Counted from the first letter of the stretch, positions 2,961-61,790 are shown. The stretch: DNA of 64,000 bases from the human T2T-CHM13v2.0 reference genome, Homo sapiens (GCA_009914755.4 CP086569.2:14336001-14400000); one strand, 5' to 3'. Translations and numbers: made by a program. The notes: generated by a model not told the origin, from the sequence alone.

Positions 2961-5869
2961 AGATCATGAAGTGTCAGATCAGTCTGGCTCTGCCCAGCAT
3001 TATCCCCCCTCCCATTTCTGAAAATGAAGATGTCAAGGGACCTAGGAATTGTATAACACAATTCACTATTTGAGGAATCCAAGTATTCCCCCTGGGGCAC
3101 AGTTTAGGTATAAACACACTTCCACTACTAACTATCTCCAGCAGTTGCCTACCTATAAGCTCCACCTACAGGCCTGAAGTCCAGGTCACACAGCCAGCTG
3201 CAATCACTGACAACACAAGTGCACAAACACAGGAAGCAGAACATACTACCGATGCTAGTATCACTGCACACACTACACTGACCACCTAGGGGCTCAGAAA
3301 CTCATTTACCCACCCAATCCACTGCTACCACACTGGCATCTAAGAAGTCCACCCAGAGGCCCACCACGTGGTCCACCTGGAATTGCCAATACAGATGCTG
3401 GCAAACAATGTCGTAGGCAAAAGGATGTTAACAACAAGCACACCACTGAGACCAGTGAAACCTGACTACAGGCCTAACTGGCACTGCAGTTTCCAGCAAA
3501 TTTCTCCACAGCCTCCATTAGTAACCACATCCTAGTATACCAAGGAAACCACAGGTACCATTAAGGGTATATACTGCCAAATAAATCAGAGACTTCACTG
3601 CTGCCCTTACCCAGACACAAAGCCAAAGGGCTCTACCCAATCAACATCACAAACCCACCTTCAGGATAAAGTCCCCACACAACAAAAGTAAATTCAATAG
3701 GCAAAAGCAACTGTTATACAGATATCAACCTAAAGACACAGGAAACATGAAAAAGCAAAGAAATATGACACTACTAAAAGAAAACTATAGATTTGAGGCA
3801 AAAAGACATTCAAGATCCTAAAGAAAGAATCTGAATGTTGTTTTCAAGGAAACTCAATGAGACGCAAGAGAAAATTCAAAACCAATATAAAGCACCCAGA
3901 AAAACAATTCAGGATGTGAATGAGGAATTGATAATCAAGGAAAAAGATTTAAAGAAAGCAAAACAAAACAAAAAATTCTGGAATTGAAAATTTCATTAAA
4001 GGAAATATTAAATACATTCAAAAGTTCCAACACTAGACTAAACCAGGCAGAAAAAAAAAATCTCAGTACTTCAGATGGGTCTTTGAAATAATCAATCAAT
4101 CAATCAATAAAATAAAAAGAATGAACAAAGCCTTTGAGACATTTCGGACAACAAAAAGTGACAAAATTTATGGACCACTGCTATCTACGAGCAGAGACAT
4201 CAAAGGGTTTAGCAAACCTATTACAAAATAGTAGATGAAAACGTCCCATGTCTAACAAGAGATTTAGACTTCTAGATACAGACGGCTCAACAATCCACAC
4301 ACAAACAGATAAAACACAAACAGTTCTTTGCAATGACACATTATAATCAAACTCAAAAGGCAAAGTGAAAATGAAACTAAAAACAGGAAGAGAATATCAC
4401 CTGGTCATGTGTAAATAAATCTACATCAAACAAATAGCATGCTTCTGAGTAGAAACTTCACAAGATAGAAGAGAATGGGTATATTCCAAGTACTGAAGGG
4501 AAAAAATCTGAGAAGAAAAATATACCCAGCAAGACTTATCTACATAAATGAAACAAAATCTTCCCTCAAAAAGGAGACGCTGAGAACATTCATCACTAAT
4601 TGCCTAGCCTAACATATGCTTAAAGTAGCCAGAGGCTTGGAAAAGAAAGAATAACATTTACCATCATGAAAACACAAGAAAGTATAAAACTAACTGGTTG
4701 AAGCAATCAAACAAAAAGGAAGTGTGATGAATCAAAGGGAATCATTACAGAATTCCACACTGGCAAACAGACAATAGAAAGAAAATTTCACAGAACTAGA
4801 AAACAATTTACAATATGATAGGAACAAAACCTCACATATCAATAATAACCTAAAATATAGACAGATAAAGTATTCTACTTGAAAAATACAGATTGACTTA
4901 AGAAACTGTATTTTACTTTACTTTTTCAGACAGTCTCACTCTGTAATCCAGGCTGGAATGCAGTGATGTGACTTCAGCTCACTGCCACCCCCACCTCTCA
5001 GGTTAAAACAATTCTCCGGCCTCAGCCTCCCAAGTAGCTGGGACTCAGGCACGCACCACCATACTCAGCTAATTTTTGCATTTTTAGTAGAGATGAGTTT
5101 TCATCATGTTGGCCAGGCTGGTCTCAAACTCCTGGCCTCAAGTGATCTACCCTCCTTGCCCTCCCAACGTAGGCCAGTGCGCCTGGCCTAAGACTGGTTG
5201 AAGAGATTTTAAAACATGATCCAACTAACTGCTGCTTACAAGAAATTTACCTTACATGGAAAGGTTCATATAAACATAGGTATGGCATGGAAAATGATAT
5301 TCAATAAAACCAGAAACCAAAAGTGAGCAAGAGTAGGTATCATTGTATCAGATAAAAGAGACAAGTCAAAAGGATAAAACACACATTAAAAGACATTTTA
5401 TAATGATAACAGAATCAATTTAGCCAGAGGATATAACAATTTTAAATATATGCACCCATCACTCCAGCACTCAGATTCATAAAACAAATATTACTAGACC
5501 CAAAGGGACATATATCTCAATACATTAAGAGTAGGGGAGGGATATCAACGCCTCACTCACAGCATTAAACAAATCATTTAGAGAAATCAACAAAAAGATT
5601 GGACTTAAACTGGACTTCAGGCCAAATGAACATAAAAAATTACAGAACATTCTATCCAACAACTGTAGAACATACATTCTTTTCATCTGCACATGGAACA
5701 TTCTCCAAGACAGACCACATATCAGGATACAAAGAAGTTCTAATACATATTTAAACAATGAAACTATATGAAATAACATCTCAGACCATACTGGAATACA
5801 ACTAGAAATCAATACAAGAGAAATGCTGGAAACTATACAACTACATATAAAACAGCATGGACCTGAATC
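2960..5869 (+). mobile_element. Older L1 element, 5' portion (leader, ORF1-like region, ORF2 N-terminal endonuclease region); split by the ERV, continues at 14327
   Basis: ORF1-like (…AAAGAAAGCAAAACAAAACAAAAAATTCTGGAATTGAAAATTTCATTAAAGG…) and ORF2 start motifs (…ATGCACCCATCACTCCAGCACTCAGATTCATAAAACAAATATTACTAGACC… = L1 …ATGCACCCAATACAGGAGCACCCAGATTCATAAAGCAAGT…). Confidence 0.6.
4912..5188 (-). mobile_element. Alu SINE inserted in L1
   Basis: Reverse-complement Alu: poly-T head, …GAGACAGTCTCACTCTGTAATCCAGGCTGGAATGCAGTG… to …GGCCAGTGCGCCTGGCC. Confidence 0.85.
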
Positions 5870-6377
5870 TGTGGAAGGAAAATAAAATAAAATAAATAAT
5901 AATAAAGTTGAAAATAATAAACATAACATAGATAATAGTTAACATTAAGTGTGGTTATTTAGAAGTTATACATAGGCTAAGAAATTTAAGCAGCCCCTCC
6001 CAGCATTGCTAACAGGTTGCAGCTGCGAGCTTATCTCAACCTTCCAAGCTTATTGCCTGCCTCCAGACCCCCCGCACATTCCTGTCGTTCCTGTTTTCCC
6101 TTACCCCAGCTCTGTCCAGCTTCGAGCCTGACTGGTCAAGATAACTAAATTGTAAGCTTTCTCAGAATTGTCACAGGTTAAATAATTTACTGTCTTTGTC
6201 TGAAACCGGTATCCTGCCTTGTTTTCCCGCCTCAAACAACATGTAAGCAAGCCTGCATTCTTTGTCAGGGTCGGCAGCCATTTTGGGCGTGAGCCTACTG
6301 GCTCAGGTGCCTCAATTAAAGTTGTTTTTGGTCTCCAAAGGTCTCTTTGTCTTCTTTGGCTGAGTTTTACTGCGACA
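5870..6377 (+). repeat. ERV 5' LTR (508 bp)
   Basis: Starts TGTGGAAGG, ends …GTTTTACTGCGACA; near-identical to 13825-14326; contains AATTAAA/AATAAA poly-A-signal-like box near the 3' end. Confidence 0.8.
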
Positions 6378-7254
6378 TTTTGGAGAGTTCGACAAGAGGA
6401 GAGAGAGGACAAGCTACTGTCTCCTTTGACTGTGGGACTTGGGCCCCGGGGTCGGGGGAGACCCAGTTCTTAGGCGCGCCGACCGAAGAGTTTTCCAAAA
6501 AAGGGCTGGGTTCTCCCACATCCCAAGGCCCTGCCCCTGATAGCGCAGGAAGGAGACCGCAAGACAACTTTCAGCGCAGTGAAAAGGAATCACGGTAAGA
6601 AAAGAGGGCCCTACAGAGTAAGAAAGGGTGCCTTACAGGGACAGACACAAATCGTGCCCTACCAGGCGGGTGGGGCACTGATCACCACTCAAGGGTTGTC
6701 TATTAGCCTAACCCAGAAGGTGAATGGGGGCGGTGAGGAAAGGACCTCACCACTCATGTGACATTCAGCCCTGAAGCCGGCAGCAGGGTAGAGCCTGCTG
6801 AGCCGGAGGGAGCAAAGAGAAAGTGAAACCGTGAAGTCACCAGTGTGAGTGAACTGTCCCAACTGGGAGTGTGTGGGTACGTGTGAACCCACCCAGGACA
6901 CGAGACAGACTCGTTTCATCTGATGAGGAGTCCTGGGGACAGGAGTTGTGTACGAATGTGTGTGAATGTGGGAGCCTAACTAGGCTCATCAGCTGTGAAG
7001 CGTGGGGGCCGCAAGTCTGTTAGAGTGGACTGTATGCTGTGAGTGAAATGTTGGACCCAGGACGACTAGAGGCGAACTTCCTTTGGGGCTACCGCATACA
7101 GCTGAGGGAGGTGGCCCCACAGTCTAGGTATTGTGGCAGAGAGTAACAAACTCTCCAAAGTCAAGCGGGGTCTGGCGTCTGAAACACCCCCACGAGGGAG
7201 ACAGTCTAATCGGTCCGAAATGAAAGTGAGGGTCATTGCGTCGTGCGGGAAGAA

Positions 7255-7671
7255 ATGGGAGGAAAAGAACCTAAGGAATTAACCCCCACTCCTTTGGAGT
7301 GCATGCTAAAGAATTTCAAGGAGGGATTTTCTGGGGAATATGGAGTAAAGCTGACCCCCGCCAAAGGTTAAGAACTCTTTGTGTAATAGAATAGCCTAGT
7401 TTGGGCATTGGTTGGCCGCCAGAGGGCACCCTTGTTTGGAAAATCACCAGCAGGGTGTTTCAAATAATAACAGGGGCAACAGATCAGCATGGACACCCAG
7501 ATCAATTTCCATATATTGATTCCTGGTTAAATATAATCCAAAATTGCCCTAAATGGCTAGGAATCTGCATGGCTGAATATTGTAAGACCCTAGTCGCCCG
7601 AACTGGTCCAAAAGGGATCAAAAAGACAGTATCATGCAAGCCTTTAGAGAAGGAAACTAGGAAGCAAAAGA

Positions 7672-7712
<41 letters not shown>

Positions 7713-8600
7713 CTTACAGGCTCCTTTGGAGAAGCTAGAGAATCCTTCTCCATATGCCCTTCTCTACCCATCCTTAGCAAGGCTCAGATAAGAGGAAGGG
7801 CAATTGTCTCCTGAAGAAACAAGCTCAGAAAGTAGCGGGGCATCTCCACAGCAGGAAGAAGCTGCATCCTTGCCACCTAAGACTAGGAGGGAAAAACAGG
7901 ATGAAGAGGCAGGGCAGGGCGTCTTAGGTCCAGTGGTTCCCGAGCTCTGCAAATGCCGCTCAGAGAGACGTGGGCACAAATCTACCTTGATGATCAAGGG
8001 TACAAGGTGGAGAACAAACTTACTCTTATCTCCCCTTCTCCACTACTGACCTTTTAAACTGGAAACATCATAACCCATCATACACAGAAAAGCCACAAGC
8101 AATAATTGATACGAGAATAATCTTTTCGACTCATAGTCCTACCTGGCCAGACTATCAGCAATTATTAGTAGTTTATTTAGCACAGAAGGAAGGCACAGAG
8201 TGGTGCAAGCAGCCCTCCAATGGCTAGAAAACAATGCCCCTGAATGCATAAATGATTCCAGGCAGTATGCGGAAGCTCAGTTCCCTGACACTGATCCAAA
8301 TTGGGTCCCAAACAACCCTGATCATTTAGAATGCCTACAGAGGTATGTGGATGCACTCCTAAATGGGGTAAAGTCAGAGGGAAGAAAAGCAATGAACATA
8401 GGAAAAGTTTCAGAAGTCCTCCAAAAGCCCGATCAGAGTCCCAGCCAGTTCTAAGAGCAGCTGTGTGAAACCTACTGGCTCTACATCTGACCCACAGGCA
8501 GCTGATAACCAGAAAATGGTAAATACTGCCTTCGTTAGCCAGTCACAAAGTGACATCAAAAAAAAAGCTCCAAAAATTAGAAGGATTGCCAAAGAGGCAT
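7255..8600 (+). pseudogene. gag: ERV gag (MA-p12-CA), degenerate
   Basis: ATGGGAGGAAAAG… start (MG myristoylation-like); …HGHPDQFPYIDSW… ~ MLV MA …HGHPDQVPYIVTW…; ORF 8200-8454 QYAEAQFPDTDPNWVPNNPDHLECLQRYVDALLNGVKSEGRKAMNIGKVSEVLQKPDQSPSQF ~ MLV CA (…[23 protein letters not shown]…); interrupted by a (CA)n microsatellite and stop codons. Confidence 0.7.
7673..7710. repeat. (AC)19 microsatellite inside ERV gag
   Basis: acacac… run read directly. Confidence 0.95.
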
Positions 8601-10700
8601 GGAGGAACTCCTCAGTGTCTTAATGAATGCTGGATATAAAATTTCAGAAAAAAAAAAAAAAGGTTTGCATCTGTTGTCCTAAAGTTAAATATTTAGGTTT
8701 TATAATAAGCAAAGGACAAAAGAAGCTTGGTAGTGAGCGGAAAGAGGCCATGTGTACACTCCCTACAGGTACCACAGGGCGCCAAATCAGAATTCTTAGG
8801 TGCAGCAGGGTTCTGCCGCATTTGGATCCCAAGTTTCTCACTTTTAGCTGAGGCTCTATATAAAGCTACAAAGGGGGTTAAGAAAGAGTCCCTCTTCTGG
8901 GAGACGGATCAAGCAAAAGCATTAAAAAAAATCAAAAAGGCCTTAACATAGGCTCCCAGATCAGACTAAACCTTTCTTCTTCTACGTGGATGAAAGAACA
9001 GGGACAGTAGTAGGAATTTTAACACAAATGCTAGGATCATGGCATAGACCTGTGGCCTATTTATCTAAACAACTAGACACAGTGGCATTAGGCTGGACAC
9101 ACTGCTTTAAAGCAGTTAACGGCAACTACCTTGCTGGCCCAGGAGGCTGGCAAATTAACACTAGGACAGAAGTTAACTTTCAGGTGCCACACACCGTAAT
9201 AACCCTGTTAGACCAGAGGGGGAATCACTGGTTGTCTATCCAAGAATTGCTAAATATCAAAGACTGTTACTTGAAAATCCTAATATAACTGTAGAAATAG
9301 GGAATACCCTAAATCCAGCTACCTTGCTGCCTACAGAAGAATCAAAAGAATTCCCATCACATTGTTGTAAGGATGTAGTAGATAAAGTGTTTTCAAGCAG
9401 GAAAGACTTAAAAGATCAGCCTTTTGAAAACTCAGACCTAGACTATTTAACAGATGTAGCAGCTTCATTTCAGACGGAGTTTACAGAGCCAGGTATGCAG
9501 TAGTGATAAATGATTTTAAGTCAGGTGAGGGAACAGTAGTAGAAGCACAGTCACTGCCAACTAGATCCTCTGCTCAAAAGGCTGAGCTGATTGCTTTAAC
9601 AAGAGCCTTATTACCAGCAAAAGGGAGGATAGTTAATATCTATATTGATTCTAAATATGCTTTTGCTACCCTCTATGCTCATGGAGACATCTATAAAGAC
9701 AGAAGACTTCTAACAGCTGCAGGAAAAGAAGTCAAAAATAAAAAGGAGATCCCGCAACTCTTAGATGCTGTTTGGGCACCTAAAAAGGTGGCCATTATAC
9801 ATTGCAAAGGTCATCAAACAGATGGGTCCTATAAATCCATAGGAAATAGGCAGACAGACAAGCAAGGCAGGCAGCTATGGCAACCGCACCACAGGAAGAA
9901 GCTTTAATGTAAGTTACCTCTTTTCCCAAAACCATTACCTTTAGAATACAACTAGGCTCAACCCCATGAGAACCCGATGGTAGATTTTACTTAGTTACCC
10001 CATGTAAGAGGACTAAAGTATTTATTGGTCTTTGTATGCACCTATCCTGGGTGAGTAGCTTTCCCCACCCAATCTGAAAAGGCCCAAGAAGTAACGTGGG
10101 CATTACTAGCACATATTATCCCCAGGTTTGGGGTGCCTTTGACTATCGGGTCAGATAATGACCCAACATTTGTCGCTGAAGTTGTTCAAAACTTATCCCA
10201 ATTATTAAAACAAGATGGAAGCTGCACACTGCGCACCATCCCCAGAGTTCAGGACAAGTTGAAAGGATGAACCGGACAATAAAGCAACTGTTTAAAAAGT
10301 TCTGTCAAGAAACCCACCTAAAGTGGGATCTGGCTCTGTCCATGGTTCTCCTTTGAATCACATGCACCCCAAACAAGCAAACTGGATACTCACCCTATGA
10401 AATTCTGTTTGGAAGGCCTCCCCATCTTATTTTCCAAATTAAAGGAGATCTCAAAGAAGTACGGGAACTAACACTGAGAAAGCAAATGCAAGCTTTAGGT
10501 ACAGCCGTGAGAGAAGTTGCAAAGCTGGGTGCAAGAAGACTGCCAGTAGGCCTAACTAGCCCAGTTCACCCATACCAACAAACCCAGGGACTCTGGCTGG
10601 GTCAAAAACTGGTACCTATCCACATTAAGGCACATATGGAATGAGCCCTTTGTAGTAATCTTATCTACCCCCACTGCTGTTAAGGTTGCTGAAGTGCTTC
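8600..10700 (+). pseudogene. pol: ERV pol remnant: RT C-terminal half, intact RNase H ORF (9503-9907), integrase; NC-protease-RT N-terminus deleted
   Basis: …LLSVLMNAGYKISEKKKK…VKYLGFIISKGQ… ~ MLV RT …[31 protein letters not shown]…; ORF 9503-9907 …SAQKAELIALTRAL…NIYIDSKYAFATLYAHGDIYKDRRLLTAAGKEVKNKKEI…IIHCKGHQ… ~ MLV RNase H; IN motifs …GSDNDPTFVAEV… / …QVERMNRTIK…; CA joins directly to RT mid-region at ~8600. Confidence 0.75.
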
Positions 10701-10899
10701 CCTGGATCCATCATAGTGGGTTAGCCAGCTGCTGCCTAGGATGTGTGGACCAGCCAGCCAGACCCCGACCAACCCACCAAGCTAACTCTAAGATGAGGTG
10801 CCAACAGAGACCAAACCCAGACCAGCCGACCTCAGACCCAACTGTTAATGAAAAATCGCCAAGCCCTGCTGTAGTCACACAATAAGAAGCTGACTACTC

Positions 10900-11060
10900 T
10901 ACACATGACCAAAGCTTGAGGAGTGTTCAATAGATAAGTGGATATGGATAAGTAAGATATGGACTGATATTTCATAAGTAGATAAGTAAATAAGTAGATA
11001 AGTAAAGTAGTAAATAAGTAGATGAGTAAAGTAGATATGGACTGATATTTTAATACCTAT
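10900..11060. repeat. AT-rich low-complexity / short tandem repeat (AAGTAGATAAGTA-like units) between pol and env
   Basis: Direct reading; GATATGGACTGATATTT occurs twice. Confidence 0.7.
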
Positions 11061-11157
11061 TGCTCTTCTAGTAATATTTGCTGTACTATTGTTATACTGC
11101 CATTGTTGCCAACCCTTGCTTTCAGGAAGAAACATACCCTGCCTGTGCCTAGTGTGA

Positions 11158-13190
11158 AGATGTTACTCTCTGTTTTGCTTATATTAACTAATATGTCAAA
11201 CTTACAAAGGGGGCGGAAATACAATTGAGTTTTCTCTGTGCACCCACACTACTTGGGCAAGGAACACACAGGTTAAAACCTTTATATATCAAACCCTTTA
11301 TAAGCAAACAGGAGCTTCTCTAGGAATTTGTGTACATAACCAGACTACTTATTCAATGTGTGATCTTGGTGATAATCAGCCCTGTGTCTGCTATGACCCC
11401 AAACTTCTACCTGGAACTTGGTTCGACATTAGTGAAAGGTCTGAAAAAGGAACTCTTTAAAATTCAACCTGGATACCCTCCACCAATAAACACTGTGTGT
11501 ATCTGTATTTAGATGCCTGCCAGATTACAAGAACACTCCTTAAAACTGGCTGCTACATTCCTGACTCCAAAAGAAAGTTGACTGTAACCAGTCATATCCC
11601 ATACTGGATTAGTGATACTCCACAGTCTCAAGACATACATTTCTCCAGAAACCTCTCCATAGATTGGTATAACTATGACAATTGTGTAAGAGGAAATTCC
11701 TGTAGCCTCACTGAATTTCTTATTTCAAATCAGATTCACCTAATTGGGCAATAGGCACTGAAGTCCCAGAGGGATACAGTGATGAAGCCACAGAATAGGA
11801 GGCAGATCCTAAGCTAAAGAGATGAGGCATTAAATATTCCAGGGTGCAGGCTACCGACAGCACCATATATTTTTATATTATACCATTATATATTTTATAT
11901 TATTTTATTTTATATTATCAAAAAGACTCAAGCTCACAAACCTCAGCAATGATTTAAAATTTTCAAGTCATTCAGTGAAGAAATTAACCAAGTAGTTTCT
12001 GAGCCATCGTTTACCACTAAAAATCTGTCTGTGCAATTAGCTAAGAATATAGCAGGAAATCTAGGAGTTACCTCATGGTAACTGACATGGAGGATAGATG
12101 GCATTGGGAGGCAAAAGAATTGCTTCCCCAGGACAACTACACTTTAATTTTCTCTGCCACAAATGCTCCAGAATTAATCCCTACTGGCTCTAGCACTTGG
12201 CTTTTAAAGGCTTCTATTACAGGAAGACACTGCATACCTCGTTGGGGGACTACCTATACACACCCAGCAGGCAAATTAGCTTGTTTAGGGCAACAATACT
12301 ACAATGAAACTACAGGAAAAACTCCATGGCAAAGAGAAAATAAAAAGGGTAAAAACAGTTCAAGGCCATCTCATTTCATTCCATTTTCTAGGTTCCCTTC
12401 TTTAAATCACTCTTGGTATCAACTAGAAACACCAAACACATGGTAAGTGCCTGTAGGCCTCTACTGGATCTGTGGTCAGCAAGCCTACAGGCGGTTGCCA
12501 GAAAAACGGACAGGAGCTTGTGTATTAGGTGTTACTAAAACATCGTTCTTCCTGTTACCTTTAAAGCAAGGAGAAACTTTAGGGTATCCTATTTATGATG
12601 AGCCTAGAAGTAAAAACAAAGGAGCAGTAAAAGATATAGAAATAGGGGATTGGAAAGATACAGATTGCAGAGAGAATAATGAATTATTATGGCCCAGCCA
12701 CCTGGGTGCAAGATAGATCATGGGGATACTGTACTCCCATCTACATGATTAATCACATCATTAGGTTACAAGCAGTATTAAAAATTATAACTAAAGAAAC
12801 AACTAAAGCTTTAGATTTATTAGATGTACTATCTACACAGAATGAGAAATGCGGTTTATCAAAACAGACTGGCATTAGATTATCTGCTGGATTCAAAAGG
12901 GGTCTGTAGTAAATTTAACCTGATTAACTGTTATTTAGAAATTGATGACAACAGGTAGGCAGTTATGAAATCACTGCCAAACTGAGAAAGTTAGCTCTCG
13001 TTCCAGTACAAACCTGGAAAGGTTGGACCCCAGACTCTCTTGGTGGATGGTTTTCATCTTCTGGAGGATTCAAGACTCTCCTTGTAAGTGTAATACTTCC
13101 ATTAGGCAGCTGTCTAATACTCCCTTGTTTATTGCCTCTCCTGTTTAGGAAGATACAGTCCACTACACCACCCCCCAAATAATGGCACTA
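11158..13190 (+). pseudogene. env: ERV env (signal peptide, SU, TM), frameshifted
   Basis: MLLSVLLILTNMSNL… signal-like start; three overlapping ORFs 12075-12909 (…[14 protein letters not shown]…GACVLG…; TM …[30 protein letters not shown]… ISD-like) in different frames. Confidence 0.6.
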
Positions 13191-13824
13191 AGTATCAGCC
13201 ATTACCCAAAGAAATCTCATCTCATGAGAAGGTAGAGAATTATGAAACTAACATAGGTTTTCTCCAAAGTAGTTTCCTTTCCCATGCCTCACCCTCTTTA
13301 CGTTCTACACGGATTATAAAACACACATGTATAGGTATGGGATAGAAGAGCTAGGCTTTAAACATCATTTATAAAAATAACTTGCTGAAGTTTAATCTGA
13401 CTTCTACTTAGGCACAGGCAAATGATGCCACAGAAAATACTAAGTTCAGCTCCTGGCTGACTTACTCGTGCTTCTCTCTAGAGAAGACACCAAAAATCAT
13501 GCCCCCCAGGTAGGTGGCTGGTTAGTCAATGATGGGGAAGATTCCCTGAAAGATAGGAACAATCTAAGAAGACAGGCACAGCCACAGGGAGGACAGCAAA
13601 GGCTGAGAAAAATTAAGCCAGAGAGCCAGTGTGCTCCCACAAAGAAGAAAAGTGACGCTAAGAGCAGATACACCGGCAAAGTAACTCCCCATGCAAACAG
13701 ATGAATTGCCTTTTGACAGGCCTTTGACTCTGTCCTACCATCCTAGCTGCATGTGCATCATCAGGAACAGGTAAAAGCTTTCTAATAATAGTTTCTTTTA
13801 AAAGAAAGCTTTTAAGGGGGGGAA

Positions 13825-14326
13825 TGTGGAAAGAAAATAAAATAAAATAAACAATAAAGTTGAAAATAATAAACATAACGTAGGTAATAGTTAACATTAA
13901 GTACAGGTTACACATAGGCTAAGAAATTTAAGTAGCCCTTCCCGGCATTGCTAACAAGTTGCAGCTGCGGGCTTATCTCAACCTTCCAAGCTTATCGCCT
14001 GCCTCCAGACCCCCGCATATTTCTGTCATTCCTGTTTTCCCTTACCCCAGCTCTGTCCAGCTTCGAGGTTGACTGGTCAAGATAACTAAATTGTAAGCTT
14101 TCTCAGAATTGTCACAGGTTAAATAATTTACTGTCTTTGTCTGAAATGGGTATCCTGCCTTGTTTTCCCACCTCAAATGACATATAAGCAAGCCTGCATT
14201 CTTTGTCAGGGTTGGCAGCCATTTTGGGTGTGAGCCTGCTGTTGGCCCGGGTGCCCAAATTAAATAAAGTTCTCTTTGGTCTCCAAAGGTCTCTTTGTCT
14301 TTCTTGGCTGGAGTTTTACTGTGACA
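13825..14326 (+). repeat. ERV 3' LTR (502 bp)
   Basis: Starts TGTGGAAAG after PPT, ends …GTTTTACTGTGACA; ~9% divergent from the 5' LTR, with many CpG-transition differences. Confidence 0.8.

Positions 14327-15365
<1,039 letters not shown>

Positions 15366-53719: not shown

Positions 53720-61790
<8,071 letters not shown>

What the first reader, a model, noticed from the sequence alone, without database searches (positions are those of the whole stretch)
5870..14326. Gammaretrovirus-like HERV provirus with both LTRs, inserted in an older L1 inside UTY intron 4, antisense to the gene
Two ~505-bp direct repeats (TG…CA) lie 7.4 kb apart and differ by roughly 35 substitutions in 400 aligned bp (~9%), many at CpG sites, so this is an old integration. 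The internal order is leader (~880 bp, CpG-rich), gag MA/CA, RT thumb, RNase H (134-aa open ORF), IN, env SU/TM, PPT. The CA C-terminus is fused directly to the RT mid-region, so about 2.5-3 kb covering NC, protease and the RT fingers/palm with YXDD is deleted. env is split over three frames. The flanking L1 sequence resumes exactly after the 3' LTR. Comparison with the L1 consensus suggests a net 4-bp gain at the junction, consistent with a 4-bp gammaretroviral TSD, though I could not align the TSD unambiguously. I could not assign the family (HERV-H/-F/-I/-E etc.) from the LTR or the degenerate PBS (TGGAGAGTTCGACAAG).
Basis: partly seen in the sequence, partly recalled or inferred. Interest (0 to 1): 0.55.

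Follow-up and report, generated by a model that had tools for sequence, protein, structure and literature searches.

The report
Old defective provirus in UTY intron
This is an ordinary, heavily mutated fossil of a retrovirus that inserted backwards into an intron of the Y-linked gene UTY roughly 20-30 million years ago; it is already in a published HERV catalogue and shows no sign of function.

Summary
Two LTRs (5870-6377 and 13825-14326, TG...CA) flank 7,447 bp reading leader, gag MA/CA, RT C-terminal part, RNase H, IN, env SU/TM, PPT, all on the + strand. The LTRs differ at 37 of 493 aligned positions (7.5%, K2P 8.1%). Every gene is broken. The capsid C-terminus is fused to RT just after the Y(I)DD codons; about 1.5 kb is missing, not 2.5-3 kb. 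The element splits an old L1 ORF2 with a net 4-nt gain. UTY exons 1-4 lie on the - strand upstream in gene order, so "intron 4, antisense" is right.

Its env is 53-59% identical to ERV3-1 Env and fits Vargiu et al.'s two-member "HERVI_b" subgroup best. The locus very probably equals RetroTector chain rvnr 5110 (hg19 chrY:15,547,047-15,555,136), filed under HERVI/HERV15. But it is only about 65% identical to that consensus, and its LTR matches neither the HERVI nor the HERV3 consensus LTR. So it is a divergent, low-copy relative, and its Repbase/Dfam name is unresolved. The PBS is present but unassignable.

Verdict: real, correctly read, already known, no evidence of function, low interest.

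The parts
5236..5869 (+). Host L1 ORF2, endonuclease-domain part, left of the insertion (ends ...CCTGAATC)
   Evidence: The joined flanks align as one stretch to human L1 ORF2p residues about 42-335, E 7e-16; peptide coordinates
5866..5869 (+). Left copy of the putative 4-bp target-site duplication (AATC; inferred original AATG)
   Evidence: Net +4 nt at the junction against L1 DNA; only 2 of 4 positions match the right copy
5870..6377 (+). 5' LTR (508 nt, TG...CA; poly(A) signal mutated to AATTAAA)
6381..6398 (+). Primer-binding site, in the correct position but mutated beyond assignment (TGGAGAGTTCGACAAGAG)
   Evidence: Spacing to the conserved CTACTGTCTCC block equals that of the HERVI and HERV3 consensus. 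Best match is tRNA-Arg(ACG) at 12/18, but shuffles reach that in 8.6% of trials
6378..7254 (+). Leader (877 nt, GC 55%, CpG o/e 0.53)
   Evidence: patches 82-84% identical to the HERVI consensus leader
7255..8588 (+). gag: ATG at 7255, MA (Gag_MA, about 7360-7560), p12-like region with PSPY (7741-7788) and an (AC)19 microsatellite (7673-7711), CA from about 7994, truncated at 'KLQKLEGL' (8565-8588)
   Evidence: Pfam Gag_MA 1.6e-11 and Gag_p30 7.5e-29; MLV CA structure 6hwx aligned to residue about 201; coordinates
8584..8588 (+). Deletion junction (GATTG shared by the CA and RT readings). Missing: CA C-terminal end, NC, protease and RT residues 1 to about 233, including Y(I)DD
   Evidence: 1,500 bp of the HERVI consensus (2531->4031) is absent, ending 32 nt after the Y(I)DD codons
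8584..9500 (+). pol: RT C-terminal palm remnant, thumb and connection (several frameshifts)
   Evidence: Aligned to XMRV/MoMLV RT (4hkq, 4mh8) from 'SELDCQQG', E 2.8e-100; RT_RNaseH_2 6e-7
9503..9907 (+). RNase H, 134-aa ORF (stop-free 9428-9904, 159 aa)
   Evidence: Pfam RNase_H 1.6e-16
9910..10885 (+). Integrase: core (GSDNDPTF 10148-10171, QSSGQVERMN 10243-10272) and MLV-type C-terminal domain; pol reading ends at 10882, stop at 10883-10885
   Evidence: Pfam rve 1.2e-8, MLVIN_C 1e-7
10933..11034 (.). AT-rich tandem repeats in the pol-env spacer
   Evidence: TRF
11160..13240 (+). env: ATG at 11160, SU (CTHTTW 11239; [11 protein letters not shown] 12456), degenerate cleavage site RSKNKG (12606-12623), TM with [14 protein letters not shown] (12857-12889), CX6C-Y (12905-12934) and membrane anchor (13069-13146); split over three frames
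   Evidence: Homologues with TLV_coat down to E 3e-112, named ERV3-1 Env-like; tblastn of the env consensus sequences and of ERV3-1 Env
13800..13822 (+). Polypurine tract AAAAGAAAGCTTTTAAGGGGGGG, followed by AA then TG of the 3' LTR
13825..14326 (+). 3' LTR (502 nt, TG...CA; AATAAA intact)
14327..14330 (+). Right copy of the putative TSD (TATG)
14327..14602 (+). Host L1 ORF2 resuming (YDHWVNKD...)

Best explanation
A gammaretrovirus-like (class I) endogenous retrovirus of the HERV-E/R/I supergroup integrated into the germ line of a catarrhine ancestor. It is related to ERV3/HERV-R and to HERV15/RRHERV-I but is a close copy of neither. It landed inside an older L1 ORF2 in what is now intron 4 of UTY, in the orientation opposite to the gene. 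It has decayed neutrally since then. The two LTRs have drifted 7.5% apart. All reading frames carry stops and frameshifts. The PBS is unreadable. A 1.5-kb deletion between two short similar stretches removed the end of CA, NC, protease and the catalytic half of RT. The element is an inert fossil: it cannot make RT, protease or Env, and nothing in the sequence suggests a host function.

Shown: structure, domain content, deletion breakpoint, L1 host, gene context. Inferred: age (about 18-35 Myr from K2P 0.081, depending on the rate used), identity with RetroTector chain rvnr 5110, and neutrality. Unresolved: whether the deletion happened before integration (a defective genome packaged in trans) or afterwards.
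For: LTR pair and divergence. Domain order: (Gag_MA, Gag_p30 7.5e-29, RT_RNaseH_2, RNase_H 1.6e-16, rve, MLVIN_C). RT/RNase H aligns to XMRV/MoMLV RT at 2.8e-100, starting only after YVDD; CA aligns to MLV CA up to residue about 201. The deletion equals 1,500 bp of the HERVI consensus. env homologues carry TLV_coat and are named ERV3-1 Env-like, and the top hit is the 604-aa ERV3-1 Env itself at 59%; full-length tblastn gives 53%. Env subgroup ranking is HERVI_b 642 bits, HERV3_b 580, HERV3_a 530, HERVI_a 456, HERV1_c 427, HERVE_a 298. The L1 ORF2 is contiguous across the site with +4 nt. UTY exons 1-4 are on the - strand. Vargiu et al. 2016 (PMC4724089, table S1) list rvnr 5110 at hg19 chrY:15,547,047-15,555,136 (+) with ltrdiv 8.03, no PBS, pol ending at 15,552,063 and env at 15,552,333-15,554,398. 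A single offset of about 15,541,177-81 maps these onto window 5870, 10882-6, about 11155 and about 13220. There are no ORFs over 159 aa, no Pfam hits on the - strand and no Rfam hits.
Against: The TSD is imperfect (AATC/TATG). Two substitutions in 8 positions have a probability of only about 3-6% at this age, and both would be transversions. The window's genomic coordinates were not given, so the match to rvnr 5110 is by landmark coincidence. No expression, methylation or comparative-genomic data could be consulted, so lack of function is an inference from decay only.
Confidence: 0.9

Rival explanations
1. It is a typical HERV15/RRHERV-I provirus of the same kind as the two AZFa proviruses about 0.3-1.1 Mb proximal on Yq, and so a potential substrate for non-allelic homologous recombination with them.
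For: Vargiu et al. file rvnr 5110 under taxorder 10250 'HERVI', which by their definition contains HERV15/RRHERV-I/RTVL-I and also holds the AZFa proviruses rvnr 5093 and 5106. Leader plus gag score better against the HERVI consensus than the HERV3 consensus (463 vs 244 bits).
Against: Only 64-66% nucleotide identity to the HERVI consensus in CA and pol. The authors aimed for at least 80% within a group. There is no significant LTR similarity to the consensus LTR portion. The env fits the 10-member HERVI_a subgroup worse than it fits HERV3_b. No Ile PBS (7-9/18).
Confidence: 0.07
2. It is a true member of the ERV3/HERV-R family (Repbase HERV3 interior with LTR4, LTR61 or LTR76).
For: Named env homologues are almost all 'ERV3-1 Env-like' and the best hit is ERV3-1 Env. 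The SU C-terminal half is 62-64% identical to ERV3-1/HERV3_b. The best, non-significant PBS match is tRNA-Arg(ACG), the HERV3 primer.
Against: Overall env identity is only 53-59%. Identity to the HERV3 consensus gag is 65-72% and the score is lower than for HERVI. There is no similarity to the HERV3 consensus LTR end beyond a short U5 motif. Vargiu et al. did not place it in HERV3.
Confidence: 0.15
3. It is a mosaic: a recombinant carrying an HERVI-like leader and gag with an ERV3-like env, as is common in this supergroup.
For: Different regions rank the two consensus sequences differently. Vargiu et al. stress that recombination is especially frequent in HERVERI.
Against: Identity to both consensus sequences is uniformly low (about 65%), rather than high to one in one region and high to the other elsewhere. 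The env is still best matched, and colinear over its full length, by an HERVI subgroup (HERVI_b). Both LTRs are the same type and there is no third LTR or antisense segment.
Confidence: 0.12
4. The element has been co-opted, for example an LTR acting as an antisense promoter or polyadenylation site that modulates UTY, or a retained viral peptide.
For: The 3' LTR keeps AATAAA and the leader keeps more CpG than its surroundings. HERV LTRs in introns are known in general to drive antisense transcripts.
Against: All genes are disrupted, and the longest stop-free stretch is 159 aa of RNase H without an upstream RT. LTR CpGs have decayed at the rate expected for methylated DNA. The viral signals face away from the gene. 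Nothing is encoded on the UTY-sense strand, and no UTY exon matches inside the element.
Confidence: 0.03

Closest known systems
ERV3-1 / HERV-R (7q11.21; Repbase HERV3 with LTR4/LTR61/LTR76)
   Same: Class I gammaretrovirus-like provirus of the HERV-E/R/I supergroup. The env is colinear with shared motifs ([36 protein letters not shown]6C) and is 53-59% identical overall, 62-64% in the SU C-terminal half.
   Different: Far below within-family identity. gag is 65-72% identical to the HERV3 consensus. The LTR is unrelated to the consensus LTR end. There is no intact env ORF, and the PBS cannot be shown to be Arg.
HERV15 / RRHERV-I (Vargiu 'HERVI' group; the AZFa proviruses on Yq)
   Same: Same catalogue group (rvnr 5110, taxorder 10250). 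Homologous leader (82-84% in patches). Same gag-pol-env layout. The env fits the HERVI_b subgroup best. Also on Yq11.
   Different: About 65% identity in coding regions. The LTR is not the consensus (LTR15-type) LTR. No Ile PBS. 1.5 kb of gag-pro-pol is missing.
HERV-E (4-1; LTR2) and Harlequin
   Same: Same supergroup and the same ISD motif. Another UTY intron carries a Harlequin chain (rvnr 5108), outside this window.
   Different: env is only about 45% identical (298 bits). The Glu PBS matches at 7/18.
Moloney MLV / XMRV (exogenous gammaretroviruses)
   Same: RT thumb, connection and RNase H align end to end (E about 1e-100). CA aligns to MLV CA. Integrase C-terminal domain is MLV-type. PPT...AATG and CA-TT(T)-TGG junction architecture is the same.
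   Different: An endogenous, dead copy, with an env of the ERV3 type rather than the MLV type.

Membership tests
LTR-retroelement provirus (ERV) | Two same-orientation LTRs bounded by TG...CA | tested here: met
   5870-6377 and 13825-14326, 92.5% identical
LTR-retroelement provirus (ERV) | PBS just 3' of the 5' LTR and PPT just 5' of the 3' LTR | tested here: met
   TGG... begins 4 nt after CA, at the same spacing as in relatives. The PPT abuts AA|TG of the 3' LTR
LTR-retroelement provirus (ERV) | gag-pol-env order on one strand | tested here: met
LTR-retroelement provirus (ERV) | Short target-site duplication | tested here: inconclusive
   Net +4 nt against L1, but the copies read AATC and TATG
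Gammaretrovirus-like (class I) ERV | MLV-type Gag MA and p30 CA | tested here: met
   Pfam PF01140 and PF02093 above their gathering scores; 6hwx alignment
Gammaretrovirus-like (class I) ERV | RT/RNase H and IN closest to MLV-type enzymes | tested here: met
   4hkq and 4mh8 at about 1e-100; MLVIN_C
Gammaretrovirus-like (class I) ERV | Gamma-type TM with ISD and CX6CC | tested here: met
   [11 protein letters not shown] followed by [10 protein letters not shown], i.e. CX6C with the second C of CC mutated to Y; homologues carry PF00429
Gammaretrovirus-like (class I) ERV | Single NC zinc knuckle; gag-pro-pol in one frame | not testable with these tools
   NC and protease are deleted
HERV-R / ERV3 (Repbase HERV3) | At least about 80% identity to the group consensus | tested here: not met
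   65-72% in gag; env 53-59% aa to ERV3-1
HERV-R / ERV3 (Repbase HERV3) | LTR4, LTR61 or LTR76 | tested here: inconclusive
   No similarity to the LTR end in the HERV3 consensus chain (z 0.4).
HERV-R / ERV3 (Repbase HERV3) | tRNA-Arg (or Pro) PBS | tested here: inconclusive
   Arg(ACG) 12/18, shuffle P = 0.086
HERV15 / RRHERV-I / HERVI group | At least about 80% identity to the group consensus | tested here: not met
   64-66% in CA and pol; 82-84% only in short leader patches
HERV15 / RRHERV-I / HERVI group | LTR15-type LTR | tested here: not met
   No significant alignment to the 312-nt LTR portion of the HERVI consensus; the only local match is an A-rich low-complexity stretch
HERV15 / RRHERV-I / HERVI group | Listed as a member in the published catalogue | tested here: met
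   rvnr 5110 has taxorder 10250. The identity of the locus is inferred from matching landmarks
HERV-E | tRNA-Glu PBS, LTR2, HERV-E env | tested here: not met
   PBS 7/18; env 45%, 298 bits

The most novel reading that the evidence does not exclude
The element is one of only two human representatives of a distinct, so far unnamed lineage within the HERV-E/R/I supergroup (Vargiu's 'HERVI_b' env subgroup). Its LTR type differs from LTR15 and LTR4. It entered the Y chromosome as an already gag-pro-pol-deleted genome that was packaged and reverse-transcribed in trans by a helper virus.
Probability: 0.12. Interest if true: 0.25.

Novelty: already known. Interest (0 to 1): 0.08.

Why it matters
It matters little. 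It is one more entry in the known pile of dead retroviruses on the Y chromosome. It is also a small cautionary example: catalogue group labels such as 'HERVI' can hide members that are only about 65% identical to the group consensus.

Tried and rejected
(1) 'The real PBS is deleted and TGGAGAG... is the post-PBS motif.' Rejected. The distance from the LTR end to the conserved CTACTGTCTCC block is 36 nt here and 38 nt in the HERVI consensus, so an 18-nt PBS sits in place.

(2) Assigning the PBS to a tRNA. Arg(ACG) is best at 12/18, but Gln, Ser and Arg(TCT) reach 11, and shuffled controls reach 12 or more in 8.6% of trials. Most panel sequences were recalled from memory.

(3) Naming the LTR. 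There was no exact 13-20-mer match in any Vargiu supplement and no significant alignment to the HERVI or HERV3 consensus LTR portions. No Repbase or Dfam library was available.

(4) Pfam on whole-frame translations missed rve and env. Stitching across the frameshifts recovered rve. TLV_coat never scored directly, giving only a marginal GP2-like HR1-HR2 hit at 0.0066, so env rests on homologue and consensus comparisons.

(5) Looking for another L1 copy in the window to reconstruct the empty site: none spans the junction. I used the L1HS DNA as I recalled it, and checked the recall by translating it and comparing with the solved ORF2p sequence.

(6) Literature. Andersson et al. 2005 on ERV3-like elements is not held. 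Searches for Telescope-style locus names on Yq11.221, and for UTY plus provirus, found nothing on this locus. PMC12884080 has no supplements held.

(7) Rfam over the whole window gave no hits. The ten longest minus-strand ORFs in the element gave no Pfam hits.

(8) RetroTector's 'DU Prot RT' motif flags for rvnr 5110 are not borne out. Protease and the RT catalytic half are absent by Pfam, PDB and consensus alignment.


Full report
OBSERVATION. The repeat finder shows collinear direct repeats about 7.94 kb apart. A pairwise alignment with flanks fixes the LTRs at 5870-6377 (508 nt) and 13825-14326 (502 nt). Both start with TG and end with CA, and similarity stops abruptly outside them. They differ at 37 of 493 aligned positions (7.5%; K2P 0.081). 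Of these, 33 are transitions and 4 are transversions; 9 transitions are at CpG sites; there are 8 indel events. The interior is 7,447 bp.

INTERNAL ANATOMY. I scanned whole-frame translations, and then conceptual translations stitched across the frameshifts, against Pfam. In this order on the + strand they gave Gag_MA (1.6e-11), Gag_p30 (7.5e-29), RT_RNaseH_2 (6e-7), RNase_H (1.6e-16), rve (1.2e-8) and MLVIN_C (1e-7). Protease, RVT_1 and zinc-knuckle models gave no hit in any frame. The 134-aa RNase H ORF is at 9503-9907. Against solved structures, pol aligns to XMRV and MoMLV RT at E about 1e-100, but only from 'SELDCQQG...' onward, about 8 residues after YVDD. Capsid aligns to MLV CA only up to '...RKLERLEDL', about residue 201. 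In the DNA, the CA reading 'KLQKLEGL' (8565-8588) and the RT reading 'DCQRGMEELL' (8584-8613) overlap by five bases. Relative to the HERVI group consensus, the missing piece is 1,500 bp (positions 2531->4031), ending 32 nt after the Y(I)DD codons. The two parental sites are loosely similar (GGAAGGCTTTGC and GGAGGAATGCC), so a homology-assisted deletion or template switch is plausible. That last step is inference. The stated size of 2.5-3 kb is about twice too large.

ENV. Pfam's TLV_coat model did not score directly. The only Pfam hit was a marginal GP2-like HR1-HR2 match, and the TM region gave weak matches to solved filovirus GP2-type envelope chains. A stitched SU C-terminus plus TM query nevertheless found 71 proteins down to E 3e-112. 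Most carry PF00429, and nearly all the named ones are called 'endogenous retrovirus group 3 member 1 Env'. The top hit is the 604-aa ERV3-1 Env itself, at 59% identity; full-length tblastn gives 53% over 480 aa. The env starts at ATG 11160 and runs to about 13240 across three frames. It has [17 protein letters not shown], a decayed cleavage site, the [16 protein letters not shown]6C followed by Y, and a membrane anchor. The PPT AAAAGAAAGCTTTTAAGGGGGGG sits directly before AA|TG of the 3' LTR. The only internal repeats are an (AC)19 run in gag and AT-rich repeats between pol and env. There is no secondary TE insertion.

SURROUNDINGS. The two flanks, joined, align as one stretch to human L1 ORF2p residues about 42-335 (E 7e-16). 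So the provirus split an older L1 that lies in the same orientation. I aligned the joined flanks to the L1HS DNA of this segment. I recalled that DNA from memory; its translation matches the solved ORF2p sequence. The alignment shows exactly four extra bases at the junction. The only 4-bp duplication compatible with this is AATG, now reading AATC on the left and TATG on the right. Two hits in eight positions is a 3-6% event at this age, so the TSD is consistent but not demonstrated.

A tblastn with the UTY N-terminus, also recalled from memory, gave a 50/50 match at 50354-50205, plus matches at 50014-49940, 40918-40805 and 19756-19706, all on the - strand. There is no later exon in the window. 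A perfect 50-residue match cannot be chance, so the window carries the 5' end of UTY and the provirus lies in intron 4, antisense.

FAMILY. Vargiu et al. 2016 (PMC4724089) list three RetroTector chains inside UTY in hg19. One is rvnr 5110, at chrY:15,547,047-15,555,136 on the + strand. Its row reads '5LTR CA ... RT IN SU TM PPT 3LTR', no PBS call, LTR divergence 8.03, pol ending at 15,552,063 and env at 15,552,333-15,554,398. One offset maps these onto window 5870, 10882-6, about 11155 and about 13220. I therefore take it to be this element. It is filed under taxorder 10250, 'HERVI', which the authors define as HERV15/RRHERV-I/RTVL-I with LTR15, 'highly related to HERV1 and HERV3'.

I tested that placement. 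Of their env subgroup consensus sequences, the two-member HERVI_b is the best match and the only one colinear over the full length (642 bits). It is followed by HERV3_b (580), HERV3_a (530), HERVI_a (456), HERV1_c (427) and HERVE_a (298). At the DNA level, the HERVI consensus is only 64-66% identical in CA and pol, and 82-84% in short leader patches. The HERV3 consensus is 65-72% identical in gag and scores lower. Neither consensus LTR portion resembles this LTR beyond a short U5 motif.

The element therefore belongs to the HERV-E/R/I supergroup, but it is a divergent, very low-copy relative. It is neither a typical HERV15 nor a typical ERV3. Its Repbase/Dfam name could not be determined here.

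PBS. I first suspected that the true PBS had been deleted, because both consensus sequences have TGGAGA...ACAG immediately after their PBS. The spacing argues against that: 36 nt here and 38 nt in HERVI. Against a panel of 25 PBS types the best match is tRNA-Arg(ACG) at 12/18. Shuffled controls do as well in 8.6% of trials, and three other tRNAs reach 11.

MECHANISM AND AGE. This is a germ-line integration followed by neutral decay. With K2P 0.081 between the LTRs and commonly used rates of about 1.2-2.3e-9 per site per year, the age is about 18-35 Myr (inference). That fits the reported 30-40 Myr entry of ERV3-type viruses into catarrhines (PMC5775217). CpG o/e is 0.33-0.42 in the LTRs, 0.53 in the leader, 0.18 in the rest of the interior and 0.10-0.14 in the flanks. 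About 40% of LTR CpGs have been lost per copy, as expected for methylated DNA, so the CpG-rich leader needs no special explanation. No stop-free stretch exceeds 159 aa. The opposite strand encodes nothing recognisable. Rfam finds nothing in the window. Whether the 1.5-kb deletion arose before or after integration cannot be decided without other copies or orthologues.

VERDICT. The finding is real and was read correctly. The corrections are the deletion size, the exact divergence and the family, which is now narrowed to ERV3/HERV15 relatives. It is already catalogued, is inert as far as the sequence can show, and is of low interest.

Noticed in passing
window 50354-50205, 50014-49940, 40918-40805, 19756-19706 (- strand): UTY coding exons 1-4. 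Exon 1 matches the recalled UTY N-terminus 50/50. The window therefore includes the UTY 5' end and promoter region.
   Followed up: partly
outside the window (hg19 chrY:15,394,442-15,401,485 and 15,451,097-15,457,971): Vargiu et al. list two more proviral chains inside UTY: rvnr 5108 (Harlequin/HERV-E type, Glu PBS, LTR divergence 8%) and rvnr 5109 (HERV1 type, no LTRs). UTY introns hold at least three class I proviruses.
   Followed up: no
window 14896-15107: A 108-bp unit duplicated in tandem (2.0 copies, 90% identical) inside the host L1 ORF2, downstream of the provirus.
   Followed up: no
window about 4880-5180 and about 14640-14850: Alu-like sequence interrupts the host L1 on both sides of the provirus. 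This was seen in the frame translations and in one Alu core motif at 5020.
   Followed up: no
window 7673-7711: A perfect (AC)19 microsatellite inside the gag p12-like region. It could be polymorphic on the Y chromosome.
   Followed up: no
window 6314-6320 vs 14262-14268: The poly(A) signal is AATTAAA in the 5' LTR but AATAAA in the 3' LTR. The 5' LTR also has a 10-nt insertion or retention near 5972 and lacks 7 nt near 6300 relative to the 3' LTR.
   Followed up: no
Vargiu 2016 table S1 row rvnr 5110; supplement 3 header: RetroTector flags 'DU Prot RT' motifs for this chain, although protease and the RT catalytic half are absent. Also, the HERVI consensus in supplement 3 is headed 'herv4_10250', a labelling oddity.
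   Followed up: partly
window 57244-57297 (- strand): A short (54-nt, 83%) match to the L1 ORF2 segment just right of the provirus, indicating another L1 fragment upstream of UTY.
   Followed up: no
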